Shown: one piece after another, positions 40,525-63,400 of the stretch
Layout: every line of letters starts with the position of its first letter
How positions within the stretch are numbered: the first letter of the stretch is position 1
NCBI GenBank assembly: GCA_043228905.1
Contig: JBHGNT010000008.1
Span: 8,742,001-8,806,000, forward strand
Reading direction: 5' to 3'
Source: Azolla caroliniana
Lineage: Eukaryota > Plantae > Polypodiophyta
Length of the DNA stretch: 64,000 nt
Position numbers and translations under genes: made by a program
Notes under the pieces: generated by a model
Database searches by the model: none
What the model was told of the DNA's origin: nothing
The model's input: the letters and a program-made list of their open reading frames with translations, nothing else

Positions 40525-40660
40525 GATTGGTGGAGAGCGGGGAGGGCCGGATCGATGACAAGGCAGAGGAGCACCGTCGGATCGAAAGATTAGGGAACGG
40601 ACGGTGCAGATGGAGGGGCGGGAATTTTCGAAATGGCCTCCCCACCCCCCCTTATAAATA
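40525..40660 (+). promoter_or_regulatory. Histone promoter: reverse CCAAT, type I Oct-like composite element, TATA box
   Basis: GATTGG at 40525; GCCGGATCGATGACAAGG at 40546-40563 resembles CGCGGATCGNTGACGTGG; TATAAATA at about 40653. Confidence 0.55.
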
Positions 40661-40800: not shown

Positions 40801-41377
40801 ATGGAATCTGGGACTGCCTCCAAGGGCGCCAAGGGCGGCAGAGGAAAGGCCTCCGTGGCCAAGAAGAAGTCTGTGTCCAAGACTGTGAAGGCTGGTCTTC
40901 AGTTCCCCGTTGGTAGGCTCGCTCGTTACCTCAAGAAGGGAAGGTATGCCCAGCGCATCGGATCTGGTGCCCCTGTCTACCTTGCTGCTGTCTTGGAGTA
41001 CCTTGCTGCAGAGGTAATTCACACGCACAAGATTCTGTGATCTTATGATCACGATTCTTTGCTTCTTCTCTTCCATATTGCTCTGCTTTATCTTTGTGAA
41101 TGTAATTAATGTCCTCATTTTAATGTTTCAGGTTCTCGAGCTTGCTGGAAATGCAGCCCGTGACAACAAGAAGAATCGCATCATCCCGCGCCATATCCAA
41201 CTTGCAATCAGGAATGATGAAGAGCTTGGAAAGCTCCTGTCTGGTGTAACAGTGGCCTATGGAGGAGTTCTTCCTAACATACACCAAGTACTCCTACCGA
41301 AGAAGACTGCTGATAAGCCGGAGAAGGCTCCTAAGGCTTCCAAATCTGTAAAGAAGGCCGGTGCACCTTCAGTTTAG
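40801..41377 (+). CDS. H2A: Histone H2A (H2A.M/H2A.W-like), exons 40801-41013 and 41132-41377, 152 aa
   Basis: [42 protein letters not shown]|[22 protein letters not shown]; phase-0 GT-AG intron at the usual plant H2A position; intact frame. Confidence 0.97.
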
Positions 41378-41406
41378 GGAGCCGCTTTAATTTACTCGAC
41401 TCAAAT

Positions 41407-41422
41407 GGTGTTTTTCAACACC
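41407..41422 (+). other. Histone 3'-UTR stem-loop-like element
   Basis: CAAAT-GGTGTT-TTTC-AACACC-ACCA: 6-bp stem and 4-nt loop, 29 nt after the stop codon. Confidence 0.75.
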
Positions 41423-42324
41423 ACCATTTTCTTGTGGTTTTGGCCTCTAGTTGTGGGGATTGGATCATTGTGCTTTGTTTATTCTGTTCGTGGAGGTTGG
41501 AGAGGCACGCTCACATTCCTGTGCAAGGAACTTAAAATGTCGTAGCGTATGAAGAACTCTTAAAATTTGAAACCCGAAACACATAATTTGTAGATCTGAT
41601 GTTTATTAAAGTTTAGGGGTTAGGGTTTTATATACGTGCTTGAATCCCGAAGGCTTGAAATTGTTTATTGGTGAATCAGAGAGCACTACCTTCCACAACA
41701 CAACCGGTGAGTCTTTTGTGCAGCTTGGGGATCATTGTCATTTCTAATGCAATCAGTAGCGCAGACTGAGCTAGGCTTGTTTTGGTTGATGATTACGTTC
41801 TGCAGACGAAATTGTGAACGTTTCTAGTTGAATCTAGTTGGATTTGATGAAGTCAATGACATTTGGTGTAGTTTAGTCTAATTGTAGAGACAGTTTAGAA
41901 TTTCTTATCAGGCTGGAACCAGTGACTGAACCTTGTTATTGGTTTTGAACTGCGTCGAATCATTAGCAACACTAATGATTTGTATTGTAAACTTTTGAAA
42001 TTAATAATAGTATTGAGTATATACAAAATTTTCAAAACCAAACTTACAAATCATTGCTTCGTTCCGTAGCACCTTCCTTTTCATTTGATATATAATAGTA
42101 TGGCTTTTTTTTAGTAGTCTTGAGTATTTTAAGTTTGGGTTTTATCAAGGTCTAGACACAAAGAGGAGTTTCTTTTCTTCTTCTTCTTCTTCTTTTTGTA
42201 ATGAATCTACGTTACTTTTCTGAAAGAACAAAGAAAGTTCAAGGAAAATTGTAGTTGACAAGGGTGTTTCTTTTGGTCTCGTCCTGCACATGTGGAACAT
42301 TCAAACCTGAATGAATGTGCGTCG

Positions 42325-43244: not shown

Positions 43245-43739
43245 AGAGGAATGTTTTTCCCATACACAGAGCTCATATAACCAGAAACAGAGGAGAAACA
43301 GAGGAGCAGATTGTTTGTATGGTTTCTGAGAATCCCATACACGGAGCTCATATAAGCAGAAACAGAGGAGAAACAGGGGACCAGATTGTTTGTATGGTCT
43401 CTGAGAATCCCATACACAGAGCTCATATAAGCAGAAACAGAGGAGAAACAGGGGAGCAGATTGTTTGTGTGCTCTCTGAGAATCTCATGTGATACAATCC
43501 TCGGAACAAACTTTACCACTCTCAAGGTGAGTTTTCCATAGAGAGAAATTTATTCCCATACACGGAGGAGAAACACAGGGGAGAGGTCTGTCTCTCCTTT
43601 CTTTGCTCTCCAGCTCCCATGTGATACAACCCTTGGAACAAACTTTACACGGCTCTCAGATGAATTTTCCATAGCGATGAATTATACTTAAAAACAGAGG
43701 AGAAACAGGGGAGAGTTCTGTCTCTTCTTCGCTCTCCAG
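43245..43739 (+). repeat. Tandem repeats upstream of the CNGC start (3 x ~75 bp, then 2 x ~130 bp related units)
   Basis: Unit CCCATACACAGAGCTCATATAAGCAGAAACAGAGGAGAAACAGGGGAGCAGATTGTTTGT; GTGATACAA..GGAACAAACTTTAC duplicated. Confidence 0.85.
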
Positions 43740-46700
43740 ATGCTATCTATGGATTTGGATGAATCTGATGAGATACCCATGCTATTAACAAGCTCTCAAA
43801 CAGCTGATCACACCTTCGTCGAGCTTTCCAATTTTCTCTCGCCTAGACCAAAACAAGCTAATTCAAGTCACCATACCTACTTCAGTGCTCCTCTGCAACC
43901 CAGTTCCAACAAAAACAGATATGCAAGTAGACCCGTTCAAGGAAACAGAACAAACAAACCTACTGAAGAGAAAGATAGTACAATTAAGCGTCACAAGAGG
44001 TTCTTTAGTGGTCCTGTTGGTGTACAGAATGAAGCTGCTACAATAACCCCCCTGGAAGTGAAAGGAACTGTCCGGAAACGCCCCCATAGTGTTGCTCCAC
44101 ATGAACATCTCTTACGATCAGGTCCTTTAGGGAAGTGTGACGATCCATTTTGTACCACTTGCCCATTGTATCCTCTAAAAGAAGAGCTGGACACGAGGTC
44201 TCCGCCCTATCATAAACTCGTTGATGGACAGGTTCTTACTTTACTTGATTATGAATTGTGATGAACTAAAGTAGTTCTTACCATCATTTCATAAAATTTG
44301 GCTTGATTGTTTCGAATGTCCAAGAAATAGGGTTATGTCAAGTATTTCCATTAGCTTGTTGGACTTTCATTTGAACAGAAAATAGGGTTAGTTTTTGCAA
44401 GAATATTTGTAATCATATCCTGATGCATCCAATTAGGCCAGAGGTAACCCCATTAACCGAGTGGTTGGACCATTTTTCCAGCAATAACGCGAATGCTATA
44501 ATTGGTACATATATTTTATGAACATGCACGTAAATGTAAATTAATAGAATAAATTAGGCCAGTGATAGGGCCACTGCCTTGGTGGATAGCTATTTGGTTG
44601 TCTATAAATCCAGTTGCTATGGTTGGAACATAGACCTACACTTAATTGTCATGAGCATACAGAGAATCATACATTAAATGTGTCAATTATGCCAGTGATA
44701 GGTCCATTTTTTCGGTGACCCAACTTTCTTACAATTACTGCTCAAAACTTGACTTAATTATCACGAGTCTACATGGATGGCCATTTAGACTTATCTTAAT
44801 ATTTTATTAGCGGAGTCACCTACATTAGAGTTAGGCTCATTAACCTGATGGATGGCCATTGGTCACAATTGTTGGTTATGGTTTGGACATAGTCCTAGGG
44901 TTAGATGATATGAGCATAGATATAGTCATACATTGATGGGGCAAAATTAGGGCTGAGATAGTCTCATTAGCGTAGTGGATGTTAGTCTTGGTGTTATGAT
45001 TTGAGCATACGCTAGGAATGATTATTATGAGCACACACACATAAGCATATGTTAATGGATCAATTGGGCCTGAGATATGGTCTGCCACTGTCGATGTGCT
45101 CTTGCTTAAACAAAGGCTGAGAATCAATCGAAAGCCATTGATACATTAATGGACTCCATTAGGCGAGAGCTTGACCTATTTTTGATCTTTCGATTTTGAA
45201 ATGCTGCCCCTTGTTTTATACCTCACATTTAATAGATTCTATTTTTGTATAAAAGTCTGTTGCATCGTACAAACATTTAGCTTGGATATTGTCCAAACTA
45301 TCATTGAATTAGTATAGCTTGGTGATTACAGTGACTGCTTATGTAATTCGTCTAGTATGCACTTCGTTCTCTATTATGTGACTCCATTTGAAATCCTTCG
45401 GATGAATTATCTCATTCTCCAACAAACACATCATGATAAAGTATCAAGTGTATTTACATTCAATTTGGTATCACACTGCTGAGTCCTGACTAATCCAAGT
45501 TCGATTATGCAACTTTTAAGCATGTATTTAGGATGATTATTCTCAGTTTCAACAAACATGCATATGATAAAAGATATCTGAAGATACCTAATATGGACAT
45601 GCATGTCTTTTATAACCTTCTTTCCTTCTTGTATTCAGGCCAATGGTAAGGCTAATAATAGGATAAAGCAGTTCTTCAAATTGGCACATGCTTGGGGATT
45701 AGCTTTCGTACCAGGAATAATGCATCCTCATACAAAGAAACTGCAAAAATGGAACAAATTCTTTTTAATCTCTTGCTTGCTGGCAGCATTTGTGGATCCC
45801 TTGTTTTTCTTTATCCTCTCGGTTGATAAGGTAATCTACAAATCTATCTGTTTTGAGCCTCAATGCTTGGTTGATATTAACTGTCAACAATATCGAGATA
45901 TGCTGGAGCTCTAAGCAATCACCAAATGTAATGGAACATACTTGGAAGTAGACCATCTATGGCTTTTTACGCGTGTCTTCTAAATAAAGGGGTAGAAAAA
46001 AAATCTTATAGACTATGGTATATGTATGTACTTCTTAGATACACATAATAAACAATTGAGAAAGTTCGAATTTATTTTGCCTTAGATCTTGCACCAAGCT
46101 ATATGAATGATATCTTCAACCTTTGAAAACCACTTGAACTATTGTTTATGCTTTTGCGTTTTATTAGAATTACCTCCAGACAATAAAATATTGTTTTTGT
46201 AGAAAGTGATATGTAACTCCATGTTTTTAGGATCAATACAAACTCTTAGTGTAATAGAACATTATGGAAGGTCGTGGAACTTTATGCAATGTTATGAGAG
46301 GTAGTTAAAGGTTCTAATAAGTCATTAGATAAGTAATGAACTTATATAAAAGAAGTCATGGGAGGGGATTATCAACAGATCAATACTAGTTATTGAATAC
46401 ATCTCCTATGTGTAAACGCTTCCCTAGTAGTTGGACAGAACATAGCATTGTATCAATATTCAAGAGCGGAGATCCCATGATACCTAGAAATTATAGGGGC
46501 TATCTCGATTGGCCATTACGTGGCTAAACTATGGCCACTTGATCTTTGAGTTTGAATTGAGTGTATGGGAAGGAAGAAAGAATGAACCAACGACAGGAAG
46601 AAAGAAAGATATATTAACCTCTTTTAAGAGGCCAAAATGGCCTATAAGACCAAACAAGAGATTACATCAGAAGTGTTGTGTCATCTTTGAGAACAACAAA

Positions 46701-49700: not shown

Positions 49701-52700
49701 TATAGGGTTTCCCATGTAGTCAAGGTGAAGCATGCGCCACCACTCAGAGCACATGCTTTAACCTTCTCATGCACTAAGGTCTAAACATTCACCACCACTT
49801 CGCACACATGCTTTAGCTTGCACTTATGTGCTCATAATTATTTTATTTTTATCTAATTTCCCACACAAAAACTACATGTAATTCTATCTTATTTGTATTT
49901 ATATTGCCTCATAGATTGGAGGTATAAGGTTCGAATCTTGTCTTCAAAAATCACGTGCACAATGTTCTGATTAATCGTAAAAATCAGGTGTTCATGCTCT
50001 TGTTTGAAATGAGAACCTTTCCTTGGTCTTGATGTGGTTCATATTGTGTACCAAGGGCAACATGATACTGGGTCCTCGGGCTGATTGACATCTCTAGATC
50101 CCAGCTCTTGTGTCTGTTCCACCTTTCGCTGGTTTGTTGGATATATTCGTTTCTATTGTCTCAGATTGTTAGGAATATGTCCCTCCAGTGGGAGGAGCCG
50201 ATTGTTTGGGCCAAGAAGTGCTGACAGTCGAAGACTAGTAGGAGCAAACTGCTTGGGCTGAGTACCGATAGTTGAAGAGTCGACTGCGAGAAAGTCGACT
50301 GGGTGAGTCGACAGAAAGGAGATCTAGGTCGAAGATGCGACCAACTAGTCGGGCCAACCAGATGGTCGATGACCAGGCCGACTAGTCGAACCGGCTGGAC
50401 AATCAACACTAGGACCGACTGATGGCCACTCATTATTATAGATAATAATAGTAGTGTTGTGTAGTAGTGGCTACATTTGTAAATAGCCCATACAAGGTAT
50501 AAATATAAATACACCTAGGGCAAGTAGTGTCTCGTGTGTGATCCTTTGTTGTAGAAAGAAAGAAAGAAAGAAAGAAAGATATATTAACGTCTTTTAAGAG
50601 GCCAAAATGGCCTATAAGACCAAATAAGAGATTACATCTTAAGTGTTGTCTCGTCTTTGAGAACAAATCAAAATAAAATAAATATTACACAGTAAATATA
50701 AAAGTAAATAACATGAAAAGAAAAGAAATGAGGGAATCTGGTTTTTGGCACATGTGAGATCCTCAAGTTAGGTATATTGTAGCTTTTGGCTTCAAAAGAT
50801 CTCTAGCATAGGTCGATCCAGAATGGAAATGTCTCCGAAGCGAGGGAAGCACCTACGATGGCGGGAGATAATGGCTTTTATCTGTCGATGACAAGGGTGT
50901 CGAGGTCGTGGTCCATGGGACCGAGGCCTACGTGCACGGCAAATTGCCATTGCCCGATCAATTGCCTTGCATAGTGGGCCAAAGCCTTGTTTAAAGAGGC
51001 AATGGTATCTCCCTTTGATTTCATAAAAGACACTACAATGACAAACATAGTGTTCTTCAGATTCCACTCCTTGATGGCACAATTGGCAAATTCTCTCTTC
51101 TAGAGGTAGTCGTGTATATCTGCCTACCTCAATCTGTAGCTGATGTGATGAAGTTCGCAGCTGCCCTATCACACTACGCAGCGCATAGGATAGATGTATG
51201 TCCATATAAGGTGGCCTGATGACAAATCCATCCTCCGATGTATGTAAGAAGTGTGTCTTATAGTGTGCCATCTTTATACCAAGTGGTATTTTGGGGCTGA
51301 TCCATGTTATCTTGTTTTCCAAGTTAATAATATCAGTTTGGATCACTCTATTTTTTTCCACTTTGGTCATATTTAGATGGGGACAGTCCAAGCTATATTG
51401 GAATGGGGGTAGGGCATTTATACTCATGCCATGTGACTCGAACCATTGTTGCATTTCAGCATACCAACAATGAGTGTCTCCATTTTCAGCCAGTTGTTTT
51501 GATGACATAAGTGCCAACCTTGGGTACCTTCGTTTAGGGAGCTCCCAAAGACATTGGATAAATGTCACTGATCAGAATAACGCCTCGGTTATTATAGGTG
51601 CTGCTCCCATCTCTGCCCGGATTATATCGTGGGGCACCGATGCTTTGCTCCTTATCATGTGAGAAAGAAAGAAAGAACGACAGAGAAGAGTGAGAACGAG
51701 AAGAGAGACTGCGAGAGCGGCGCCGTAGCTGTGGCTGATACACTCAGATTAGAGAGTGTTGTACTCTAATCCCGTCCTTGTATATCCACTATATATATAA
51801 TGAAGCTCCGTTCTCCGTGGTTTTCTCCCGCTTTAGGGTTTCCACGTAAAATCAGTGCACATTGTCTTCTGCGTTTCCTGAACTGTGTATTTCAGCGCAT
51901 TCCTTTATTGTGGATTGACGATTCATTTCTCAACACAGATATCCTATCTGTGGTATGTGGCCATTCATCGAAATCCACTTCCGGGCTGAATACTATCTTC
52001 CTTCCTGTCAGATCATAGTCCGTAGGGCTTAGACGTTGACTTGCATCCAATGAAGATGCATCTGTTGCTCAGCTTCTAGTTTTGTCCCAAAATTGCACAC
52101 GCACCCAACATGTACTACCAACCACATATAGATATGTTGCCAACAGTGTCTTCCCTGAATAAGCTTCCAATGGAGTCACCCACTCCATGGCCATCGTGAA
52201 AATTTGATCGAGTATGTAGGTCATAGTGTTAATAGCTTCCATCAGAAAGATGCCTTATTTTATTTGTTTATATGAGTTCTTCTACTTCGTTAGATAGATT
52301 CATAGATTCAAGTCTTAGCTTATAATATAGAATTGTGTTTTTATAGTGACCCTTCTAGCATGATCTTACATTGTCGTCAGATATATATTGATTGACTCTT
52401 CTTTGAACCCTTGATGTTGTAGAACTAGCAGTATTTGAGTGCCAATTATTGTCTGCTTGTAAAACTAACCTACATGAAGATATATCTTTAGCAACTTTAA
52501 TCTCACTGGAGGCCTGAATTTTGTGAGCATCATAGATATATGACGTCAGTATACCTTGATGCATGCAGGTTGACATTCATGTTCACAGAAGTTGTGGATA
52601 ATGTTAAAATATATGACGTCAGTATATCTTGATGCATGCAGGTTGACATTCATGTTCATATACAAACCTGTAAGTTTTAAATCTATGGTCTTTCGTTCAT

Positions 52701-53343
52701 ATGTACAAACCTGTTGAACATGACCTTTGAGGCATTTGTTTTCCCTATATACAAGCAACTTCAGCAATATTTGCTTACTATGAAACAAATGGTCGGTGAT
52801 GCAGCATGCCTGCTAACATCATATGATTGTATATAAGCCTTTGGCAGCATTGTACTACATTTCTTTTTCTGTGTTAAAGTTAGTGAAAGTCTATATATAT
52901 CATTAAAAAGAATGGAGCAATTTTCTGTTTTGGCAGGATAATCATTGTATATATTTTGATGTAAAATTTGCAAAAGTAATAACAGCATTGCGGAGTGCAG
53001 CAGATCTTGTTTATATTATCCACATGCTTTTGCAGGTAATAAATGAATTTGGTATGCTTTACAGGTATTTTCTTCTGGTTTTGTATCTTAACAGGAATGG
53101 TTTTAGTTTCCCTCCCAGGCCCCACCTTACCTTGTGTTTGCAGCTTATTTGAAAGAAAACATTATAATTTTACTATAATAATTCTTTGTAACCATTACTA
53201 TTTCTCAGTTTCGATTGGCATATTTTGGGCCATCATCTGGAATCGGTTCCGGGCCTCTCATTGATGAACCAAAGCAGATAGTGGCACACTATCTTTTGGG
53301 ATGGTTTTCCCTTGACTTGGTTGTGGTATTGCCTCTACCTCAG
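43740..53343 (+). CDS. CNGC20: Cyclic nucleotide-gated ion channel, group IV-A (CNGC19/20-like), 5' part: exons 43740-44231, 45639-45830, 52937-53035, 53209-53343; presumably continues beyond the window
   Basis: EHLLRSGPLGKCDDPFCTTCP; VPGIMHPHTKKLQKWNKFF..VDPLFF; DNHCIYF..LRSAADLVYIIHMLLQ; FRLAY..LDLVVVLPLPQ; four phase-0 exons with GT-AG boundaries. Confidence 0.9.
46380..46545 (+). pseudogene. LINE RT N-terminal fragment
   Basis: Reads approximately WTEHSIVSIFKSGDPMIPRNYRG.SIGH..AKLYG with a frameshift. Confidence 0.6.
46594..48160 (-). mobile_element. Two tandem 5'-truncated LINE (RTEX-like) 3' ends
   Basis: SSHQLEVEV..ARICQLCHQGVEYEERYVCHC; shared 3' UTR and (CTTT)n tail. Confidence 0.8.
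48560..49080. repeat. 171-bp tandem repeat, 3 copies
   Basis: Units start at 48560, 48740 and 48911; copies 2 and 3 are nearly identical. Confidence 0.95.
50167..51935 (+). mobile_element. Solo LTR with TSD CAGAT, interrupted by a LINE
   Basis: CAGAT|TGTTAGG ... CTCAACA|CAGAT. Confidence 0.85.
50553..51661 (-). mobile_element. 5'-truncated RTEX-like LINE inserted in a GAAA tract
   Basis: ORF 50792-51568 with LRTSSHQLQIEVGRY..ERICQLC..ESEEHYVCHC; AGAAAGAAAGAAAG on both sides. Confidence 0.85.
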
Positions 53344-53862
53344 GTATGCCTCTGGAACATAATTTGTCTCACAGGCATATGTACTTTTTGACTGTTTAGT
53401 GTTACCGAATTGTTAAAACTGAGATATATTAGCCAGCTACTGCACTACACAATACCATGTCTATTTATCGTTGAATCAATTAAAGTGTAAGAAAGGATAT
53501 AACAACATCGATGTAGAAGTAAATAGGATGACTTATCTACATTGGACATTGGCAGCTACTTTGTTGGAGAGTTTCAAGTCTAGGGTCTTGAGAGAAGTTG
53601 TTGAAAGATAACAATACAACCACAACAGCTCATTAACAAAGGACCACACCTTTCTTTACCTCCACCACTCCTCATTCTACAAGTCAATCAAGGACTACAA
53701 AGTAGGATCTTGACCACAACACTTAACAGGGGTTATAATAGATCAGTCAATAACAAGTTATTGTGTATTAAGGCCACGCCCATTTGAACTTTGATACCAT
53801 CACCCTTGACATTGATAGATAAGAGCCATTACTATCTGACACAAAGGTGTGTCCCTTGCTTC

Positions 53863-54490
53863 AGAAAGAAGAAAGATATATTAATGTCTTTTAAGAGGCC
53901 AAAATTGCGTATAAGACCAAACAATAAATTGCATCTTAAGTGTTGTCTCGTCTTTGAGAACAACAAATCAAAATAGAATAAGTAGTACTCAGTAAATATA
54001 AAAGTAAATAAGATAAAAACAGATGAGGAAATCTGGTTTTCAGCACATGTGAGATTCTCAAGTTAGACATATTGTAACTTTTGTCTTCAAAAGATCTCTA
54101 GCATATGTCGATCCAGAATGGAGAGGTCTCCGAAGCAAGGGAAACAACTGCAGTGGAGGGAGATAATGTCCTTTATTTGTCAATCTTGGATTGTCTCATG
54201 TTAGAGATCTTTTGAATGCAGAAGTTTCCATCCATCTAAATCGGGAATGCTAAGTGCTCAGCTATACTAGTTTAGTTATATTTAATTTGGTTTGTGTTTT
54301 TCAAAGACGAGACAACACTTAAGATGTAATCTCTTGTTTGGTCTTATAGGCCATTTTGGCCTCTTAAAAGACGTTAATATATCTTTCTTTCTTTCTTTCA
54401 AAGACAAAACAACATTTTGAGATGTAATCTCTCCTTTGGACTCAATTCCATTTTGTTCCTCTTAAAAGACTTAATACATATTTTCTTCTC
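53863..54490. mobile_element. Short LINE 3'-end copies in inverted orientation
   Basis: 53863 to about 54185 on the minus strand; about 54190-54399 on the plus strand; degenerate third copy to about 54490. Confidence 0.8.
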
Positions 54491-54780
54491 TTTTCCTATA
54501 TCTACTCTTCCTTCATCCATGAAGGACATTCATTGCTCTCAAATCTTGTGCCTATTACATTTCATTCAGAACATTAATGGTAGACTTCGATAATCAGTTT
54601 AAAGGTTGATACTAAACCACCTACTCCCTGTCATATATTGCTGAAAAATTGTGTCAGGAATAAGATTTTATTTCAGCTTCACATGCAAATACCTTTTTCT
54701 GGTTCAATGACTATGTTATGATTGGGTATAATGAAGTGAAGAAGAGGTGACACTATCATCTAATCAGAACAATCTAATTA

Positions 54781-54820
<40 letters not shown>

Positions 54821-55195
54821 GGGTGCTGAGGTCGTGGTCCATGGGGCCAGGGCCTACGTGCGCGACAAATTGCTATTGTCTGATCTATTGTAACTCCTTT
54901 GTTATGTACTGGTCGGGAGCCCATTTGTGTATCCCTTGATTGACTGCAACATTAGTAGGAGTGATGGGGCTAAAGAAAGTTGTTATTGTTCTTTGTGGAT
55001 GAGCTTGTGTGGTGGTATTATTACCCTTCAACAACTTTTCCCTATGTCTATTGAGTTCTAGCAAGAAAAGTCCTAGGCACTGTTGGTCCTCATATTCCAT
55101 TACCTTGTTTAGTGGGCCAAAGCCTTGTTTAAAGAGGCAATGGTACCTCCCTCTGATTTCGTCAAAGACACTACAGTGACGAACATAGTGCTTCT
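54781..55195 (-). mobile_element. LINE 3' fragment of the same family
   Basis: Homologous to 47190-47550 and 50900-51060; (GAAA)n tract. Confidence 0.75.
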
Positions 55196-55284
55196 TCTTG
55201 GCCCTTTTCTATCTCAGTTTGAAAGCTTTCCATGTATGTGCTGATGACAAGCTTCCCCTGTAGTTTGAGAAAATACATTAGGTT

Positions 55285-58200
55285 CGTTGGGGTAAAGGCC
55301 CTAAATGACCCCCTTATAGTGTGTACATGTATATAGGCCTATTTATAAAGGCCAAAAGTCACTCATCACTTTTTTGTTACTTTTGGGCCAAGTTCAGTGT
55401 GAACTTGGCAAACCCTAAATGGGCCATATAAAACATAAGTTAAAAACTTTTGGATCTCTCTTAAAAGGTGAGCTCCTCCAACTATTGCTCTCTCACTCTC
55501 TCTCTCTCTCTATCTTTTCTACCATAGCTCCACTATTGCATCTAAAGGGCCTATACTAGGGTGAATCCTGAGTATTCCTTAGCCCTATTGACATCAGTCC
55601 TAACCCTTACAACTGGTATCAGAGCAGATTTAGGGTTTCTGAACTTCTGCACAGTTGCTGTACAGCAAAGAACAGGTGTTCAGACCTCTTTATTGTGAGC
55701 TATGGCGTCATCCTCCTCAAAAGCGAAGAATCTTTTTGAGATTCGACGATTTGAGGGAACAGGTTTCGACTTGTGGAAGGAAAGAATGCAAGGAATTCTT
55801 TTTTTGAAGGATTGTGAGAGTGCGTTGGAGGCAGAAAAACCAGAGAACATGTCAGAAGATGCATAGCAGATTTTAAACAAAAAGGCTATCATATATATCA
55901 AGATGGCTGTTTCTGATGAGATCTTGATAGATCTCAAAGGGTTGGAATCTGCTTCTAAAATATGGGCAAAGCTGAAGGCCACATATGAAAGCAGTACACC
56001 TGTTAATCAAGTACACCTAATGCGAAAGCTCGTTGGCATGCAATTGGATGAGTCCAAGAGTGCAGCTGAACACTTGTCCTTGTTTACAGGTACCTTATCA
56101 CAGCTGCAAGACTCAGGAATGACTCCTTTTGATGATAAGCTCAAAGCCATTTTCTTGTTAATGACACTACTTGACTCATGGGAGACATTGGTAGTCTCAT
56201 TATCTAATAGCCCCAACTTGACCTTTGATGGTATTAGGGGCTCCATACTCAATGAAGAGATCAGGAGAAAAGCACGTGGAGAAGGTGGCAACTCAGCCAA
56301 CATGGTTAGAGGTAGGACAGATAAAAGAAGTAACTATGCACATAGGAACAAAAGTAAAAGCCATGAAAGGGGAAGTAGCAGCAAAGTTAAAAGCAATGAC
56401 GTAACATGCTATCGGTGTGGCAGGAAAGGCCACAAGAAACCTGATTGCCGCTATTACAAAGCTGAACTTGAAAGAAAAAGGAATTCTGAAGATAAGAGAA
56501 AGGACAAGACTAATGCACATGACAGCCAAAAGGACGAAGAGAAGGCCAATTTGGCCTCTAATGTAGTCATAGAGGAGCTGTTAGATGTTGAGGACATTTT
56601 ATGTGCTAGTTTTTCAGCAGATGATACTTATGCATATGATGCCTCTCCAAATATTCCTTCAGAGGACATGTGCATCACTAAGAATGATCTTATTGATGCT
56701 TTGCTGACTGTCAATGATGCATTAGCCCAAACATGGATAGTTGACTCTGGTGCTTCATTTCATGTGACTCCTATCAAGGAGTGTTTTTTTACTTTTACTG
56801 TAGGCAGCCATGGCCATGTATACCTTGGAAACAATCATGCATGTTCCATTGAGGGTATTGGCACTGTGCGTTTTTCTACAAATGGCACTAATGAGCTGGT
56901 TTTGCATAAAGTGTGTTATGTACCAGGGATCAAGAAGAGCTTGCTTTCTGTGGGGCAAATGGATATGCATGGTTATAGCATTCTCTTTGAGAGAGGATCA
57001 TGGAAAATGACAAAAGGTTCAAGGCTGATTGTGAAAGTTCACTCCCATATGGAGTTGTGGCATAAGAGACTTGGCCATATGAGCCAAAAGGGTCTCACTA
57101 GGCTTTGTAATCTAAAGAAGCTTGATGCTAAAGGCACGCAGCTTAATTTTTGTAATGAATGCCAATATGGAAAGCAAGTGAAGCTTTCCTTTTACTCTGG
57201 CGTGTCTCGTAAGTCTTGTGTACTTGATCTTGTTTATTCTGATGTGTGTAGCATGCCCACCAAATCTATGGGGGGTGCAATGTATTTTATCTCATTTGTT
57301 GATGATTTCTCTAGAAAAATTTGGGTTCAATTGCTTAAATCTAAGGATGAAGCCTTAGCTGCATTTAAGCGTTTTTATGCATTTGTGACCACTCAAACAG
57401 GCAGAAAACTGAAATGTTTGCGTACGGACAATGGTGGTGAATATACAAGTGCTGAATTCAAGAAATTTTGTGAAATTTTGGGTATTAAGAGGGAGCTTAT
57501 TGTTCCATATAACCCCTCTTCTAATGGTGTGAGAAAGTGAGATGCATGCTGTCCACTGCTAATCTCCCTCATGTCTTTTGGGGAGAGGCACTGAAAACTG
57601 CAGTACATGTATGCAATAGATCCCCTCACACGCTTTAAAGGGTGACATCCCTGAAGAGGTTTGGTCTGGCAAACCCGCTTCATATGATCACTTACATGTC
57701 TTTGGCTGCGAGGCTTTTGTACATATAAGGCCTGAGCTGAGAAACAAACTTGATGCCAAGTCCATTAAGGGCTTCTTCATGGGATATGGTGAAGAAGGCG
57801 AAATGGGTATAGGATTTGGATACCCCAGCTCAAGAAGGTTATACGCAGCCGAAATGTTGTTTTCAATGAGGCAAGGCTGCTTCAAAACAATTGTGCCTCA
57901 AAAGATGACTATAAAAGGGTTAGATTTCAGCATGACCAGCCACCTGTTAGACCTAGTTTTGACCATCAGGATCCACCACAAAGGACTGAAAATATTGATC
58001 ATCCAGTGGTTTTGGAGCCAGAAGATGTTGGACAGCAAGATGAGGATCCTGAAAGGAATATGCAGCCAAATAATAATGCTGAAAATGGTGCTGAAAATAA
58101 TGGACAGCAGCCCAACAATGATGATTTGGACCTGCCACCTGATGTTGATCCATTTCCTGACAATATGGATCATTGGGTGAGACGTTCTACTCGTATAAGA

Positions 58201-60130
58201 CGAAATGTGAGTAGATTTGACCCCTCGTTGCACTACATAATGTTGACCGATGAGGGAGAACCTCTTACATATAAAGAGGCAAAGGCATGTGAGCACAACA
58301 ATAAGTGGGAGCTTGCTATGCAAGAAGAGATTAAGGCTTTGCATTCAAATAATACTTGGGACTTGGTTGAACTGCCCAAAGGAAGGAAAGCTATTCCTAA
58401 CAAATGGGTATATAAAATCAAGACCGTTGATGACAAACCCAAGTATAAAGCAAGGCTGGTTGCAAAAGGATATGCTCAAACTAAGGGCATAGATTTTCAG
58501 GAAGTGTTTTCTCCTGTGGTAAAAATGACCAGTTTGTGAGTGCTATTTGCTATAGTGGCTGCACTTGATCTGGAATTAGACCAAATGGATGTACATACAG
58601 CTTTTCTGCATGGTGACATTGACGAAGAGCTTTACATGAAACAGCCTGAGGGCTTTTTTATTCCTGGAAAGGAACATTTGGTATGTAAGCTCAATAGAAG
58701 CTTGTATGGGTTGAAACAAGATTCTAGACAATGGTACAAAAAGTTTGACGCTTTTATGCTCAAACATGAGTACAAAAGAAGCCATGCTGATCACTGTTTG
58801 TATACTAAAAGAGATGAAAGTGGCGACCCAATCATTCTTGTACTATATGTAGATGATATGCTCATTGCTGCCAAGAAAAGGAGCATTGTCGATGTCCTTA
58901 AAAAGCAGCTGAAATCTGCATTTTCAATGAAAGACCTTGGGGAAGCTGAACATGTACTTGGAGTAAGAATTAGTAGACAAAGGGAGCAGCACACACTGTA
59001 TTTATCTCAAGAAAAATACATTGACAAGGTGCTGGACAGATTTTGTATGGCTGACGCAAAGCCTCTAGGAGTGCCTTTACAGCCATATGATAAAGTCTCT
59101 AAGGAAGATTGTCCTAAGACACAAGAAGCAATCAATGACATGCAAGGTGTACCTTATGCTTCAGCTTGTGGTTCACTTATGTATGCTATGGTTGCTACTA
59201 GACCTGATATTGCCTATGCAGTGGGAGTTGTAAGCCGATTCATGGCTAATCCGGGCAAGGCACATTGGAATGCAGTAAAGTCCATTATGAGGTACTTAAA
59301 AGGGACTAAAAATAAATGCCTCTGTTATGGAAAAGGCCCATTAGAGCTGAAGGGTTTCTGTGACGCTGACATGGCAGGTGATGTGGATACACGGAAATCC
59401 ACAAGTGGCTATGTATTCACACTTGCAGGTGGTGCTATATCATGGTGTAGTAGGCTGCAAAAGGTTGTTGCTTTGTCCACTACTGAGGCAGAATATATCT
59501 CAGCCACCGAGGCTTCCAAGGAAGCAATATGGTTAGCACGTCTATGCAGTGAGTTTGGTTTGCCTGAAAAGGCACCCATTCTTGGTTGTGATAGCCAAAG
59601 TGCCATCTGTTTGGCAAAGAATGCTATGTTTCATGCACGCACAAAACATATTGATGTGCGATATCACTTCATTCGAGAAGTGCTTGAGGATGGCCTTATC
59701 ACATTGATAAAGGTCCACACATCACAGAACCCTGCGGATGTACTGACCAAGTGCTTACCCAAAGCACAACATCAGATATGTATACAAATGGTGGGAGTCA
59801 TGTAGCTTAAAGGCGTCATTTATGCCTTTAAGTGGGAGGTTGTTGGGGTAAAGGCCCTAAATGACCCCCTTATAGTGTGTACATGTATATAGGCCTATTT
59901 ATAAAGGCCAAAAGTCACTCATCACTTTTTTGTTACTTTTGGGCCATATAAATGGGCCATATAAAACATAAGTTAAAAACTTTTGGATCTCACTTAAAAG
60001 GTGAGCTCCTCCAACTATTGCTCTCTCTCTATCTTTTCTACCATAGCTCCACTATTGCATCTAAAGGGCCTATACTAGGGTGAATCCTGAGTATTCCTTA
60101 GCCCTATTGACATCAGTCCTAACCCTTACA
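55285..60130 (+). mobile_element. Full-length Copia element H in a CNGC intron
   Basis: LTRs 55285-55611 and 59841-60130; TSD AGGTT; PBS TGGTATCAGAGC at 55614; PPT AAGTGGGAGG. Confidence 0.95.
55702..59805 (+). pseudogene. Copia H gag-pol, disrupted
   Basis: CYRCGRKGHKKPDC; WIVDSGAS; LRTDNGGEY; VLYVDD; NPADVLTK; stops and frameshifts. Confidence 0.92.
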
Positions 60131-60476
60131 AGGTTATGGTGCCAAATGTTTGCAATTCATCATGGCCGTCAAAGTATTGTATTCAGAAAGTATGCGACAT
60201 ACTTAATTGCTTAACACAATTATAGTCAATGATACAATGACAATGCATACTGATAAGAATCTCTTTATATTATTCTCTCAACATGATTCCAAACTGCATG
60301 AATTGTACATGCATATATAGTTTCTAGAGGGTGTCCAATAGATATCAGGAATAGTTACACCTGGACATATCTTGTAATTGTTTGGATCAGCAAACACTAA
60401 CTACTATTTAATATATGTTATATTTACTTGTTTATCTATTTATCAGACACTGTATGCGTGAAAGCATGGGAATGGG

Positions 60477-63400
60477 TGTTGGGAACTGAGACCGTCAGTG
60501 CGGAAACATAAACAGCACCTTGCTATGAAGATCACCGAGTTATCATGTGTAAGCAAGATGCAACAGAGAATCTGAGAGAGAGAGACAGAGAGGCATGCAA
60601 TGTAACATTATTATTCAGAGAATGGTTACAATGCAATGGAGGTGGCAGCTCTCTAACAAAATAACAACCACCTTATGAGCTAGGTTACAAAGCCCTTTAT
60701 ATACTAACTGGGCTAGGGCAATGACGCTTTGACATATTTACAAAGATGTCCTAAACCTAGACTGTCCAAAGAAACAGTGTGAATACAGCCATTAGAGACC
60801 CGTATTCGACACTCCCCCGTAATGGGTGTATACACCAAAAAACCTATAAAAGAATAAATAAGAGTTACAGATTATACCAAAATTGTTAAACATATCAGTT
60901 TTGTTCGAATCGGCAAAACCCGAAAAGTAGAAGGTCGAGTCGGTAGGGGTTGGAAGAACTAAAGCCGAGCTTCAAACTATTGATTTCGATTGTCTGAGAA
61001 CGTCTTGAATGTCCGACTCAATCGGACTGATTTTTCTCTACGCCCATCTAGTGTCGAAGGGATCGGAATCAATCCGCCAAAAGACACTTGGTCATCCCAT
61101 CTGTGACATTATCGATTGTAGATATCTTCTCGAGGCCGATTTTCCCTGAAATGACGCAGTTCCGAACAAAGTGATATTGAACATCGATATGCTTGGAGGT
61201 GTTGTGATGAACCGGATTTTTCGATACAGCAACAACACCTTGATTGTCACTGTAGACAACTGGAGTTGAGTCGAAGTTGACTTGTCGAAATGTGTGTGCT
61301 AGGCGACCAAGCCATAAGGCCTCTTTCGCCGCGTCAGACGCGGCTACGTATTTTGCCTCGGTCGTTGATGTGGCAATGCACTCCTGAAGTTGACGACTCC
61401 GATGGCATGAGCAATGTCAGGCCGTGTCGCGACCATCGCGTACATCAAGGAGCCGATTGCTGGTGCATATGGTACCGACTTCATATCTTCCCCCTCATGA
61501 CCGGATGTTGGGCAGTCTCGTTGAGATAGTCGAAGGTTAATGACGAGTGGGGTCAAAGTGGATTTGTCCGACTACATGTTAAAGTGTTCTAGGACACGTC
61601 CGATATAGTCAGATTGGGACAGAAACAATTGTCGTCGATTCCGATTTCGACTTATCTTCATCCCAAGAATGTGTCTTGCCAGACCGAGGTCTTTCATGGC
61701 AAACTTCAATTGCAGTTGCCGAACAAGTTTGACGAGATCACCGGTATGACGACCGGAGAGTAGCATGTCGTCCACATAGATGATAAGGAAGATGGGAGAC
61801 CCATCTCGGGCTGTTTTGGTGAAAGGCAGTGGTCCTCATCGCTTTTAGAGAAACACACTGATTGGATGAAGTCGTCGAACTTCTTGTACCACTGTCTCGG
61901 TGCGTGCTTTAGGCCGTATAGACTCTTCCTGAGTCGGGAGACTAGATATTCCTGGCCGGTTTCTACAAAGCCTTTCGGCTGCTCCATATAAAGTTCCTCC
62001 TCTAAATCTCCATGGAGGAAGGCCGTTTTTACATCTAGCTGGGTCAGCTCCAAGTTCTCGATTGCCACTACGCTGAGTAGAAATCTCAGGGTCGTCATTT
62101 TCACCACTGGTGAAAAGATCTTGTCGAAATCGACGCCATATTCCTGTCGAAACCCTTTCGCAAATAATCTAGCCTTGAATTTTGGGATGGCCGAATCGGA
62201 AGTCTCTTTTAATTTGTAGACCCACTTGCATGGAAGAGCACGTCGATTCTTCGGTAATTCGACCAAGTTCCAAGTTTTGTTTGCCCGAATGGAGTTCATT
62301 TCCGACTCCATCGCCAGATGCCATGTGGTCGAATTGGCTGATGCCGATGCTTCTTCGTATGATGTCGGTTCTCTAGTGTTCGTAAAGAAGATTCCTAGAG
62401 AGTACCTTTTGGGGGGTTGGGACAGTCGCTCGGATCTTCGAGGTATGACAGGACTGGTTGCATTGGATATCGGAGTTGGATGGTCGAAAGCCGAATCGTT
62501 TGGCTATGCCACGTCGATCGGTGCCGAGTCGGTGCTAGAGGATTCGGCTACCCGTGAAGCTGACCTCGTATTATGGACCGGGCCTTCGTGAAGGGCTGGT
62601 GCATCTGAAAAGGTTACCCTTCGGACTTCAATAGCCCTTTCGGCCGTCTTGTGCATAGCCGACTCATTGAACACTACGTCCGAACTTCGGACGATCTGTC
62701 TGTGCTCAGGGTCCTAGACTGGTATCCGAATTCGTCATCTGGTCCATAGCCAAGGAAAATACATTTCCTGGACCTTGGTTCTAATTTTCGGCGATCGTCT
62801 TTGGGGATGTATCCGGTTCTAGATAAATGCGTTATGCCGGCCTTGCTGAGGTGTCTGAGTCATCCATGCCATAGTGAAGACATTGGAATATCAACCAGGA
62901 ACAAGTCACCCTCTCTGAATGTGACGTAGAATGGGTACAAAGAATGTACTTTCGGTCCTCGAGCAAGCCGGAGGTTCCCCCTGTGGAGTGTCCACCCCTT
63001 GATGAGAAGCCGACACGCATTCTGTCTTCGTCCAATTGTCCGACTGAGATCAAAGGTATGTAGAGCTCAGGTACATGTCAGACATTGTGTAGTACTAAAG
63101 TAGAACTACCTGGGAGGTTGAGTTCTACAGTGCCGATTCCGATAATGGCGCGGTGTTGTGAATTTCTGACTCGTACTGAGTCGGAGTGTCGGGCCGAATA
63201 TTGCCGAAACTAGGATTTGTGAGGGGTCACATGATAGGACGCACCCGAATCCAAGAGCCATGTGCTCGATTCCTCAGTTGTAAGCAGAACTTCTGATTCA
63301 ACTAGGTTTTCAATGGATAGTATGTTCGAGTTGGTCGACCGTACTTTGGCTGAAGAGCCGACGTAATTGACCTCCTCATGCCGGCCACTCTTTTGATCTG

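What the first reader, a model, noticed from the sequence alone, without database searches (positions are those of the whole stretch)
41401..41430. Metazoan/algal-type histone 3' stem-loop behind a land-plant, intron-containing H2A gene
Seen: 29 nt after the H2A stop lies CAAAT-GGTGTT-TTTC-AACACC-ACCA. It has a perfect 6-bp stem with two basal G-C pairs and a top U-A pair, a UUUC loop, an A-rich 5' flank and an ACCA 3' flank. Known: this is the geometry and position of the SLBP-bound stem-loop of replication-dependent histone mRNAs in animals, several protists and volvocine algae, whereas land-plant histone mRNAs are generally described as polyadenylated and without it. Inference: this lineage may retain an SLBP/stem-loop pathway, or a relic of it, here on a spliced variant H2A. 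No purine-rich U7-type downstream element is visible, so processing could be U7-independent or the hairpin could act inside a poly(A) mRNA.
Basis: partly seen in the sequence, partly recalled or inferred. Interest (0 to 1): 0.82.

Follow-up and report, generated by a model that had tools for sequence, protein, structure and literature searches.

The report
Fern H2A.M histone mRNA stem-loop
A small RNA hairpin just behind a histone H2A variant gene of what is likely a fern is a real, conserved copy of the signal that was shown in 2026 to end tail-less histone messages in mosses, ferns and cycads, so it is a new example of a known system; the only fresh part is that it sits on a spliced variant gene of a type that survey left out.

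Summary
The hairpin is real: GGTGTT-TTTC-AACACC at 41407-41422, 29 nt after the stop, the only strict match in 128 kb of both strands. Rfam Histone3 gives 23 bits, below its cut-off of 34. The gene is an intron-containing H2A.M-type variant whose nearest named relatives are fern proteins. Chen et al. 2026 (PMC13130582) report SLBP and poly(A)-less, stem-loop histone mRNAs in moss, the fern Adiantum and a cycad; this exact 16-mer marks two cycad H4 genes that are 93-95% poly(A)-less. In one relative's contig the motif is unchanged while its flanks differ (0 of 25 against 12 of 46 positions, p=0.006). Relatives' spliced contigs also run through the hairpin, so a dual ending (stem-loop or poly(A)) is the likeliest mode. 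What is left as new: that survey excluded H2A.W-clade genes, and two unnamed H2A.M/W-clade loci also carry the hairpin. SLBP in this genome and the true 3' ends were not testable. The scan noted the same motif before, behind H3 and H4 genes of this genome and a moss H2A.

The parts
40574..40583 (+). CCGTC joined to a GGATC core, resembling plant histone-promoter S-phase elements (motif names recalled, not tested)
   Evidence: positions 40574 and 40578; meaning is recalled
40653..40659 (+). TATA-like box (TATAAAT)
40801..41013 (+). H2A.M-type histone, coding exon 1 (71 aa; L1 loop RYAQ)
   Evidence: motif definition from PMC12459048 passage
41014..41131 (+). 118-nt GT..AG intron between codons; four other plant-type H2A loci break at the same place
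   Evidence: spliced out in contigs of 4 of 4 runs; L027, L041, L050, L080
41132..41377 (+). coding exon 2 (81 aa plus TAG); lysine-rich tail ending [14 protein letters not shown], no KSPKK
41402..41406 (+). A-rich 5' flank CAAAT
   Evidence: unchanged in the X10 contig, one change (41403) in X3
41407..41422 (+). histone 3' stem-loop GGTGTT-TTTC-AACACC, likely SLBP site
41423..41426 (+). 3' flank ACCA; predicted end of a poly(A)-less isoform about here (by analogy, not measured)
   Evidence: ACC follows 34 of 47 hairpins
41427..42000 (+). downstream 3' UTR of a read-through, likely polyadenylated isoform; its end lies at or beyond 42000 or is unknown
   Evidence: spliced contigs of relatives align in pieces up to 41606 (X2) and 41999 (X10); no AATAAA in 41378-42200, ATTAAA at 41605, AATAAT at 42003

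Best explanation
[quoted passage not shown] Shown here: sequence, position, splicing, conservation of the motif in relatives, and read-through contigs. Taken from published work on other species: SLBP in ferns, poly(A)-less ends at this 16-mer in a cycad, and mixed ends in Adiantum. Inferred: SLBP binding to this copy, cleavage after ACCA on this gene, and coupling to S phase. How the cut site is chosen is open; no animal-type purine-rich element is visible, so either a diverged U7 RNA or SLBP-guided cleavage/trimming would have to do it.
For: Identical 16-mer listed for Cycas debaoensis contig000176.14 and .6 (H4 best hits), poly(A)-less ratios 0.93 and 0.95. Among the 27 cycad rows with ratio >= 0.6, all start GGUG and the top pair is U-A in 14, G-C in 8, C-G in 5 (my count from Table S9), i.e. 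compensatory change; none of the 14 low-ratio rows starts GGUG. SLBP is listed for Adiantum (3) and Ceratopteris (2). Window protein is nearest to fern H2A (103-106 of 113 core residues identical for named ferns, against 86-93 for flowering-plant types; tree group 94/83, not starred). X10 contig: 0 changes in 41402-41426 against 12 in 46 flanking positions (Fisher p = 0.006). Position test on fetched H2A loci: hairpin within 170 nt of the stop in 45 of 77, in 0 of 66 distal windows and 9 of 3850 shuffles. Adiantum Table S6: 28 genes span 0.05-0.95 poly(A)-less, median about 0.28, its two canonical-type H2A genes that I could identify 0.35 and 0.36, which fits mixed ends.
Against: No read ends at the hairpin were seen; all runs were contigs, which cannot show ends. 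Spliced contigs of two runs (X2, X10) bridge both the splice joint and the hairpin and go on for hundreds of bases. SLBP was not checked in this genome (no genome held). Cycas panzhihuaensis keeps an SLBP gene but its histone mRNAs are polyadenylated, so a hairpin does not guarantee use. In animals an intron is said to prevent stem-loop processing (PMC3661734 passage). Only 2 of 28 Adiantum genes exceed 0.8 poly(A)-less. Below Rfam's cut-off. L004, an H2A.M-like locus, lacks the hairpin. The conservation test rests on one contig; for X3, X5 and X6 the table does not list all differences.
Confidence: 0.62

Rival explanations
1. The hairpin binds SLBP but is never the 3' end of this gene's message. 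Because the gene is spliced, all messages are polyadenylated downstream and the hairpin acts internally, on translation or decay.
For: Spliced read-through contigs. No purine-rich downstream element. Intron and stem-loop processing are described as mutually exclusive in animals. Loci L002 and L024 are short intron-free contigs that also continue about 490-570 nt past their hairpins. The preprint describes fungal transcripts with a stem-loop followed by a poly(A) tail.
Against: Contigs cannot show a shorter isoform, and the library type is not on record. Canonical-type H2A genes of Cycas (0.84, 0.98) and Adiantum (0.36) do give poly(A)-less ends; their introns were not checked here, but the intron at this place is common in plant H2A loci.
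Confidence: 0.22
2. The hairpin is a relic. It is inherited from stem-loop-using ancestors and is no longer used in this species or on this gene, as suggested for Cycas panzhihuaensis.
For: [quoted passage not shown] The relatives compared are only about 90% identical, so little time may have passed.
Against: The motif is unchanged while a quarter of the flanking positions differ in X10. The stem is perfect and matches functional cycad copies letter for letter.
Confidence: 0.13
3. A chance hairpin in an AT-rich UTR.
For: 42 perfect 6-bp/4-nt hairpins per strand in the window; regional folding z = -0.21; below Rfam cut-off.
Against: Single strict hit in 128 kb and it lies 29 nt after a histone stop; exact 16-mer in cycad H4 genes and behind H2A in L007, L036, L037; 0 of 66 distal windows.
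Confidence: 0.01

Closest known systems
Land-plant histone stem-loop/SLBP system (Chen et al. 2026, Genome Biol, PMC13130582: Physcomitrium patens, Adiantum capillus-veneris, Cycas debaoensis)
   Same: Identical 16-nt hairpin to two cycad H4 genes; same likely lineage (fern); mixed poly(A)-less and polyadenylated ends reported.
   Different: That study kept only canonical-clade H2A and excluded genes clustering with H2A.W, H2A.X or H2A.Z. The three Adiantum homologues of this protein that I looked up are in its gene list but not in its poly(A)-less table. So H2A.M-type genes were not measured.
Stem-loop and SLBP survey of Zhao, Bond and Ni Leathlobhair (bioRxiv 10.64898/2026.10.14.759114)
   Same: Reports near-canonical stem-loops close to stop codons in bryophytes and gymnosperms, SLBP in seed plants and mosses, LSM10/LSM11 homologues in land plants.
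   Different: Main text has 0 occurrences of 'fern', 'intron', 'H2A.W' or 'H2A.M'.
[quoted passage not shown]
   Same: 6-bp stem, 4-nt loop, GG-CC base, U-A top pair, U at loop 1 and 3, A-rich 5' flank, ACC 3' flank, about 30 nt after the stop (animal median 30 nt).
   Different: Stem reads GGUGUU rather than GGCUCU; 23 bits against a cut-off of 34; gene has an intron; no purine-rich HDE; SLIP1-binding motif not found in plant SLBPs.
Human H2A.X dual-ended mRNA
   Same: A variant H2A whose gene gives both stem-loop-ended and polyadenylated messages (PMC8015243 passage).
   Different: Different variant clade; the gene here is spliced within its coding region.
H2A.M (non-flowering land plants) and H2A.W (seed plants)
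   Same: RYAQ in loop L1; groups with fern proteins next to the H2A.W clade. H2A.M.2 marks constitutive heterochromatin in Marchantia.
   Different: This copy lacks KSPKK, which several of its fern relatives have. Its chromatin location is untested.

Membership tests
[quoted passage not shown] | 6-bp stem, 4-nt loop, G-C at pair 2, U at loop position 3, ACC 3' flank | tested here: met
[quoted passage not shown] | Close behind a histone stop codon | tested here: met
   29 nt; enrichment 45 of 77 proximal against 0 of 66 distal in fetched H2A loci
[quoted passage not shown] | Reaches Rfam gathering score (34 bits) | tested here: not met
   23 bits; L007 and L036 with the same 16-mer also fall short, 29.7 and 24.4
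[quoted passage not shown] | Conserved in orthologues, with compensatory changes in the family | tested here: met
   0 of 25 against 12 of 46 in X10; compensatory top pair in the cycad table; pairs 3-6 covary among 35 distinct hairpins, which were however selected for pairing. No compensatory change was seen among this gene's own orthologues.
Land-plant SLBP pathway (Chen et al. 2026) | SLBP gene present and expressed in the organism | not testable with these tools
   No genome held. Present in Adiantum and Ceratopteris per Tables S7/S8.
Land-plant SLBP pathway (Chen et al. 2026) | Transcripts end just after the hairpin without poly(A) | tested here: inconclusive
   Only contigs were available; they show read-through and cannot show ends.
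Metazoan U7-dependent processing | Purine-rich histone downstream element shortly after the stem-loop | tested here: not met
   At most 5 of 10 purines in windows starting +1 to +21
Metazoan U7-dependent processing | Intronless gene | tested here: not met
   118-nt intron, spliced in 4 of 4 runs
Metazoan U7-dependent processing | U7 snRNA, LSM10, LSM11 in the genome | not testable with these tools
   No genome held; no U7 in the window at Rfam cut-off
H2A.M | RYA[Q/K] in loop L1, non-flowering land plant | tested here: met
   RYAQ; nearest to fern proteins; definition
H2A.W | KSPKK C-terminal motif | tested here: not met
   tail ends [14 protein letters not shown]
H2A.M | Heterochromatin localisation | not testable with these tools
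   shown only for Marchantia H2A.M.2

The most novel reading that the evidence does not exclude
In ferns, and in at least some other plants with H2A.M/H2A.W-clade genes, the heterochromatin H2A variant is made from a message that is first spliced and then cut at an SLBP stem-loop without an animal-type downstream element. Splicing and stem-loop processing would then be compatible in plants, unlike in animals. The H2A.M/W lineage would be an ancestrally replication-coupled, stem-loop-controlled histone that switched to poly(A) only when flowering plants lost SLBP.
Probability: 0.4. Interest if true: 0.5.

Novelty: new member of a known kind. Interest (0 to 1): 0.24.

Why it matters
The general point (land plants with SLBP-type histone messages) is already published, so this copy changes little by itself. 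It adds one untested class of gene: the H2A.M/W heterochromatin variants, excluded from the one survey of real 3' ends that I read. If these spliced messages do end at the hairpin, ferns offer a simple test of how a histone 3' end is chosen without a visible U7-pairing element and despite an intron. It would also tie supply of the heterochromatin histone to the S-phase pathway. The test is cheap: re-analyse the existing Adiantum and Cycas long-read data for the excluded genes.

Tried and rejected
Whole-genome scan for SLBP, U7, LSM10/11 and paralogous hairpins: no genome is held. Rfam at gathering score over the window: 0 hits. Sequencing runs: no RNA holder listed on record, all 11 rows are guessed RNA and kept as contigs, best share 0.15; 3' ends therefore not measurable. 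The X1 contig that matches the coding region without differences stops at 41328 and does not cover the UTR: no inference drawn. Protein search with exon 2 against longer proteins returned fused or multi-copy H2A entries and was useless for lineage. The antisense control (18 hits) is invalid because a stem is its own reverse complement; it was replaced by distal and shuffled controls. An intron in the 3' UTR was considered from the 220-282 nt skips and not claimed: the letters between are not known and the X10 contig length leaves no room for a 280-nt deletion. A conserved downstream element among plant-type loci was looked for by eye: a G-rich/GATTT-like stretch follows the hairpin in L002 and L024 and weakly here, on three sequences only, so not claimed. 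Folding stability of the region is not above shuffles. Weak snoRNA-like Rfam hits near the gene (E 1-8) are treated as chance. L029 was not counted as a hairpin-negative locus because its reading ends in a non-histone tail; L077 gave no parsable stop. Paper searches with no hit: H2A.M + Marchantia + H2A.W + S phase, H2A.M + H2A.W + ferns. Searches listed nothing on stem-loops of H2A.M/W genes by title or abstract start; I did not open most of those papers, so S-phase expression of H2A.W/M is not documented here.

Full report
Observation. The window holds one histone gene among LTR retroelement and hAT remnants. Its coding region runs 40801-41013 and 41132-41377 around a 118-nt GT..AG intron, and contigs in 4 of 4 laid runs skip exactly that intron. 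Perfect 6-bp/4-nt hairpins are common (42 per strand), but with the histone-type filters this is the only site in 128 kb; a relaxed pattern adds 3 others. Rfam Histone3 scores it 23 bits, E = 0.0015 in a local search, under the cut-off of 34. Regional folding is not above shuffles (z = -0.21). No purine-rich block follows within 21 nt.

What the gene is. The protein has RYAQ in loop L1 and no KSPKK tail, which fits H2A.M as defined in PMC12459048 (passages). The nearest named proteins are from Ceratopteris, Adiantum and Pteridium: 103-106 of 113 core residues identical, against 86-93 for flowering-plant H2A types. In a 46-row tree it falls in the fern group (support 94/83, not starred), beside the H2A.W clade. 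The organism is therefore likely a fern; this is inferred. H2A.M.2 marks constitutive heterochromatin in Marchantia (PMC12867329 passages). The intron is not special: four other plant-type H2A loci break at the same codon.

Prior art. A paper search found two 2026 works. Chen et al. (PMC13130582; I read the abstract, passages, the histone Results and Methods sections, parts 1, 25, 26 and 29 of the spreadsheet plus row searches, and passages of the figure supplement; figures and the three FASTA supplements were not readable) report poly(A)-less, stem-loop histone mRNAs and SLBP in Chlamydomonas, Physcomitrium, Adiantum and Cycas debaoensis, with loss in Selaginella and flowering plants. Their Table S9 lists this exact 16-mer for two cycad genes with H4 best hits and poly(A)-less ratios of 0.93 and 0.95. 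By my count of the 27 rows with ratio of 0.6 or more, the top pair is U-A in 14, G-C in 8 and C-G in 5. SLBP is listed for Adiantum and Ceratopteris. In Adiantum leaf the 28 tabulated genes range from 0.05 to 0.95 poly(A)-less, median about 0.28, only 2 above 0.8. The study excluded H2A genes clustering with H2A.W, X or Z, and the three Adiantum homologues of this protein that I looked up appear in the gene list only, not in the poly(A)-less table. The preprint 10.64898/2026.10.14.759114 (abstract, passages, two of three Results parts, one Methods section, first part of the Discussion; supplements closed) reports near-canonical stem-loops in bryophytes and gymnosperms and LSM10/11 homologues in land plants; its main text never mentions ferns, introns, H2A.W or H2A.M, though its per-gene files may hold such loci.

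Conservation. All 19 differences of that contig are accounted for. For X3, X5 and X6 no change is listed in the stem either, but their tables omit differences near alignment ends, so I do not count them; X3 has one change in the 5' flank. Among 80 H2A loci from metagenome contigs (best 80 of 503, scan stopped early), a GG..CC hairpin lies within 170 nt of the stop in 45 of 77 with enough sequence, in 0 of 66 distal windows and in 9 of 3850 shuffles. The window's 16-mer recurs exactly in L007, L036 and L037, and its stem in 19 loci. Pairs 3-6 covary among 35 distinct hairpins, but these were selected for pairing. Within the H2A.M/W group, L002 (5-nt loop, 48 nt after the stop) and L024 (loop TTGT, 87 nt; inside the H2A.W clade at 97/88) carry the hairpin, while L004 and eight loci of flowering-plant H2A.W type (five placed by the tree, three by tail motifs) lack it, as do two H2A.X-type loci. 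Rfam did not list L002 or L024. The organisms of these loci are not named.

Transcript ends. Only assembled contigs were available, and RNA origin is a guess by the tool. Single contigs in X2 and X10 bridge both the splice joint and the hairpin and continue to 41606 and 41999 in pieces. This shows that a long, spliced read-through form exists in relatives, with the caveat that a contig is not one molecule. It says nothing against a shorter isoform, which an assembly would absorb. No AATAAA lies in 41378-42200; ATTAAA (41605) and AATAAT (42003) are candidates only.

Mechanism. The best reading (0.62) is a working SLBP site giving a dual ending, as for moss and Adiantum genes and, by analogy, human H2A.X (PMC8015243 passage). 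Shown: motif, position, splicing, conservation, read-through. Inferred: SLBP binding, cleavage after ACCA, S-phase coupling. The main rival (0.22) is an internal SLBP site in an always-polyadenylated message; in animals an intron is said to block stem-loop processing (PMC3661734 passage). Against it, canonical-type H2A genes of Cycas (0.84, 0.98) and Adiantum (0.36) give tail-less ends, though I could not check their introns. A relic (0.13) has a precedent in Cycas panzhihuaensis but fits the conservation poorly. Chance (0.01) is excluded in practice.

Novelty. The system is known in ferns, so this is a new member of a known kind. The residual point, a stem-loop on spliced H2A.M/W-clade genes, was not found in my searches, which cover only open-licence papers and preprints. 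Earlier notes of this scan describe the same motif behind H3 and H4 genes of this genome and behind a moss H2A and H3.3; I read them after reaching my reading, did not check them, and do not count them as support. Interest 0.24.

Noticed in passing
L024:604-619 and L002:505-521: Two unnamed H2A loci of the H2A.W/M group carry GGTGTT..AACACC-ACC hairpins with atypical loops (TTGT; 5-nt TTATT) that Rfam does not list, while flowering-plant-type H2A.W loci lack them.
   Followed up: partly
L010, L015, L016, L018, L019, L021, L047, L055, L056, L072 (60-95 nt after the H2A stop): A non-animal variant of the hairpin with GGTGAA/GGTGAT stems, A-rich 4- or 5-nt loops and often a GAG-rich stretch about 10 nt downstream; 5-nt loops occur in several loci.
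   Followed up: no
L054 and L069, 23 nt after the H2A stop: A shared hairpin with a C-G base pair instead of G-C (CGTGTC-TGTA-GACACG) followed by a shared TTCTGTACGATT stretch.
   Followed up: no
window 40548-40583: Two CGGATC cores and a CCGTC motif upstream of the TATA-like box, resembling plant histone-promoter elements (names recalled).
   Followed up: no
window 41612-41626: Short plant-telomere-like run (gtttaggggttagggtttt) in the downstream UTR region, within a stretch where relatives' contigs do not align.
   Followed up: no
window 43692-44261: An open frame without Pfam hit that looks like an exon of a neighbouring gene rather than a transposon.
   Followed up: no
window 2500-36800 and 50800-62500: Nested, frameshifted Ty3/gypsy and Ty1/copia remnants and hAT (DUF659) pieces make up most of the window.
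   Followed up: no
PMC13130582, Fig. S7a text: The main text and legend give 33 of 51 high-ratio genes with a stem-loop, while the figure's own label reads 45/51.
   Followed up: no
L036:1534-1652: A 5S rRNA gene lies about 750 nt downstream of the H2A hairpin.
   Followed up: no
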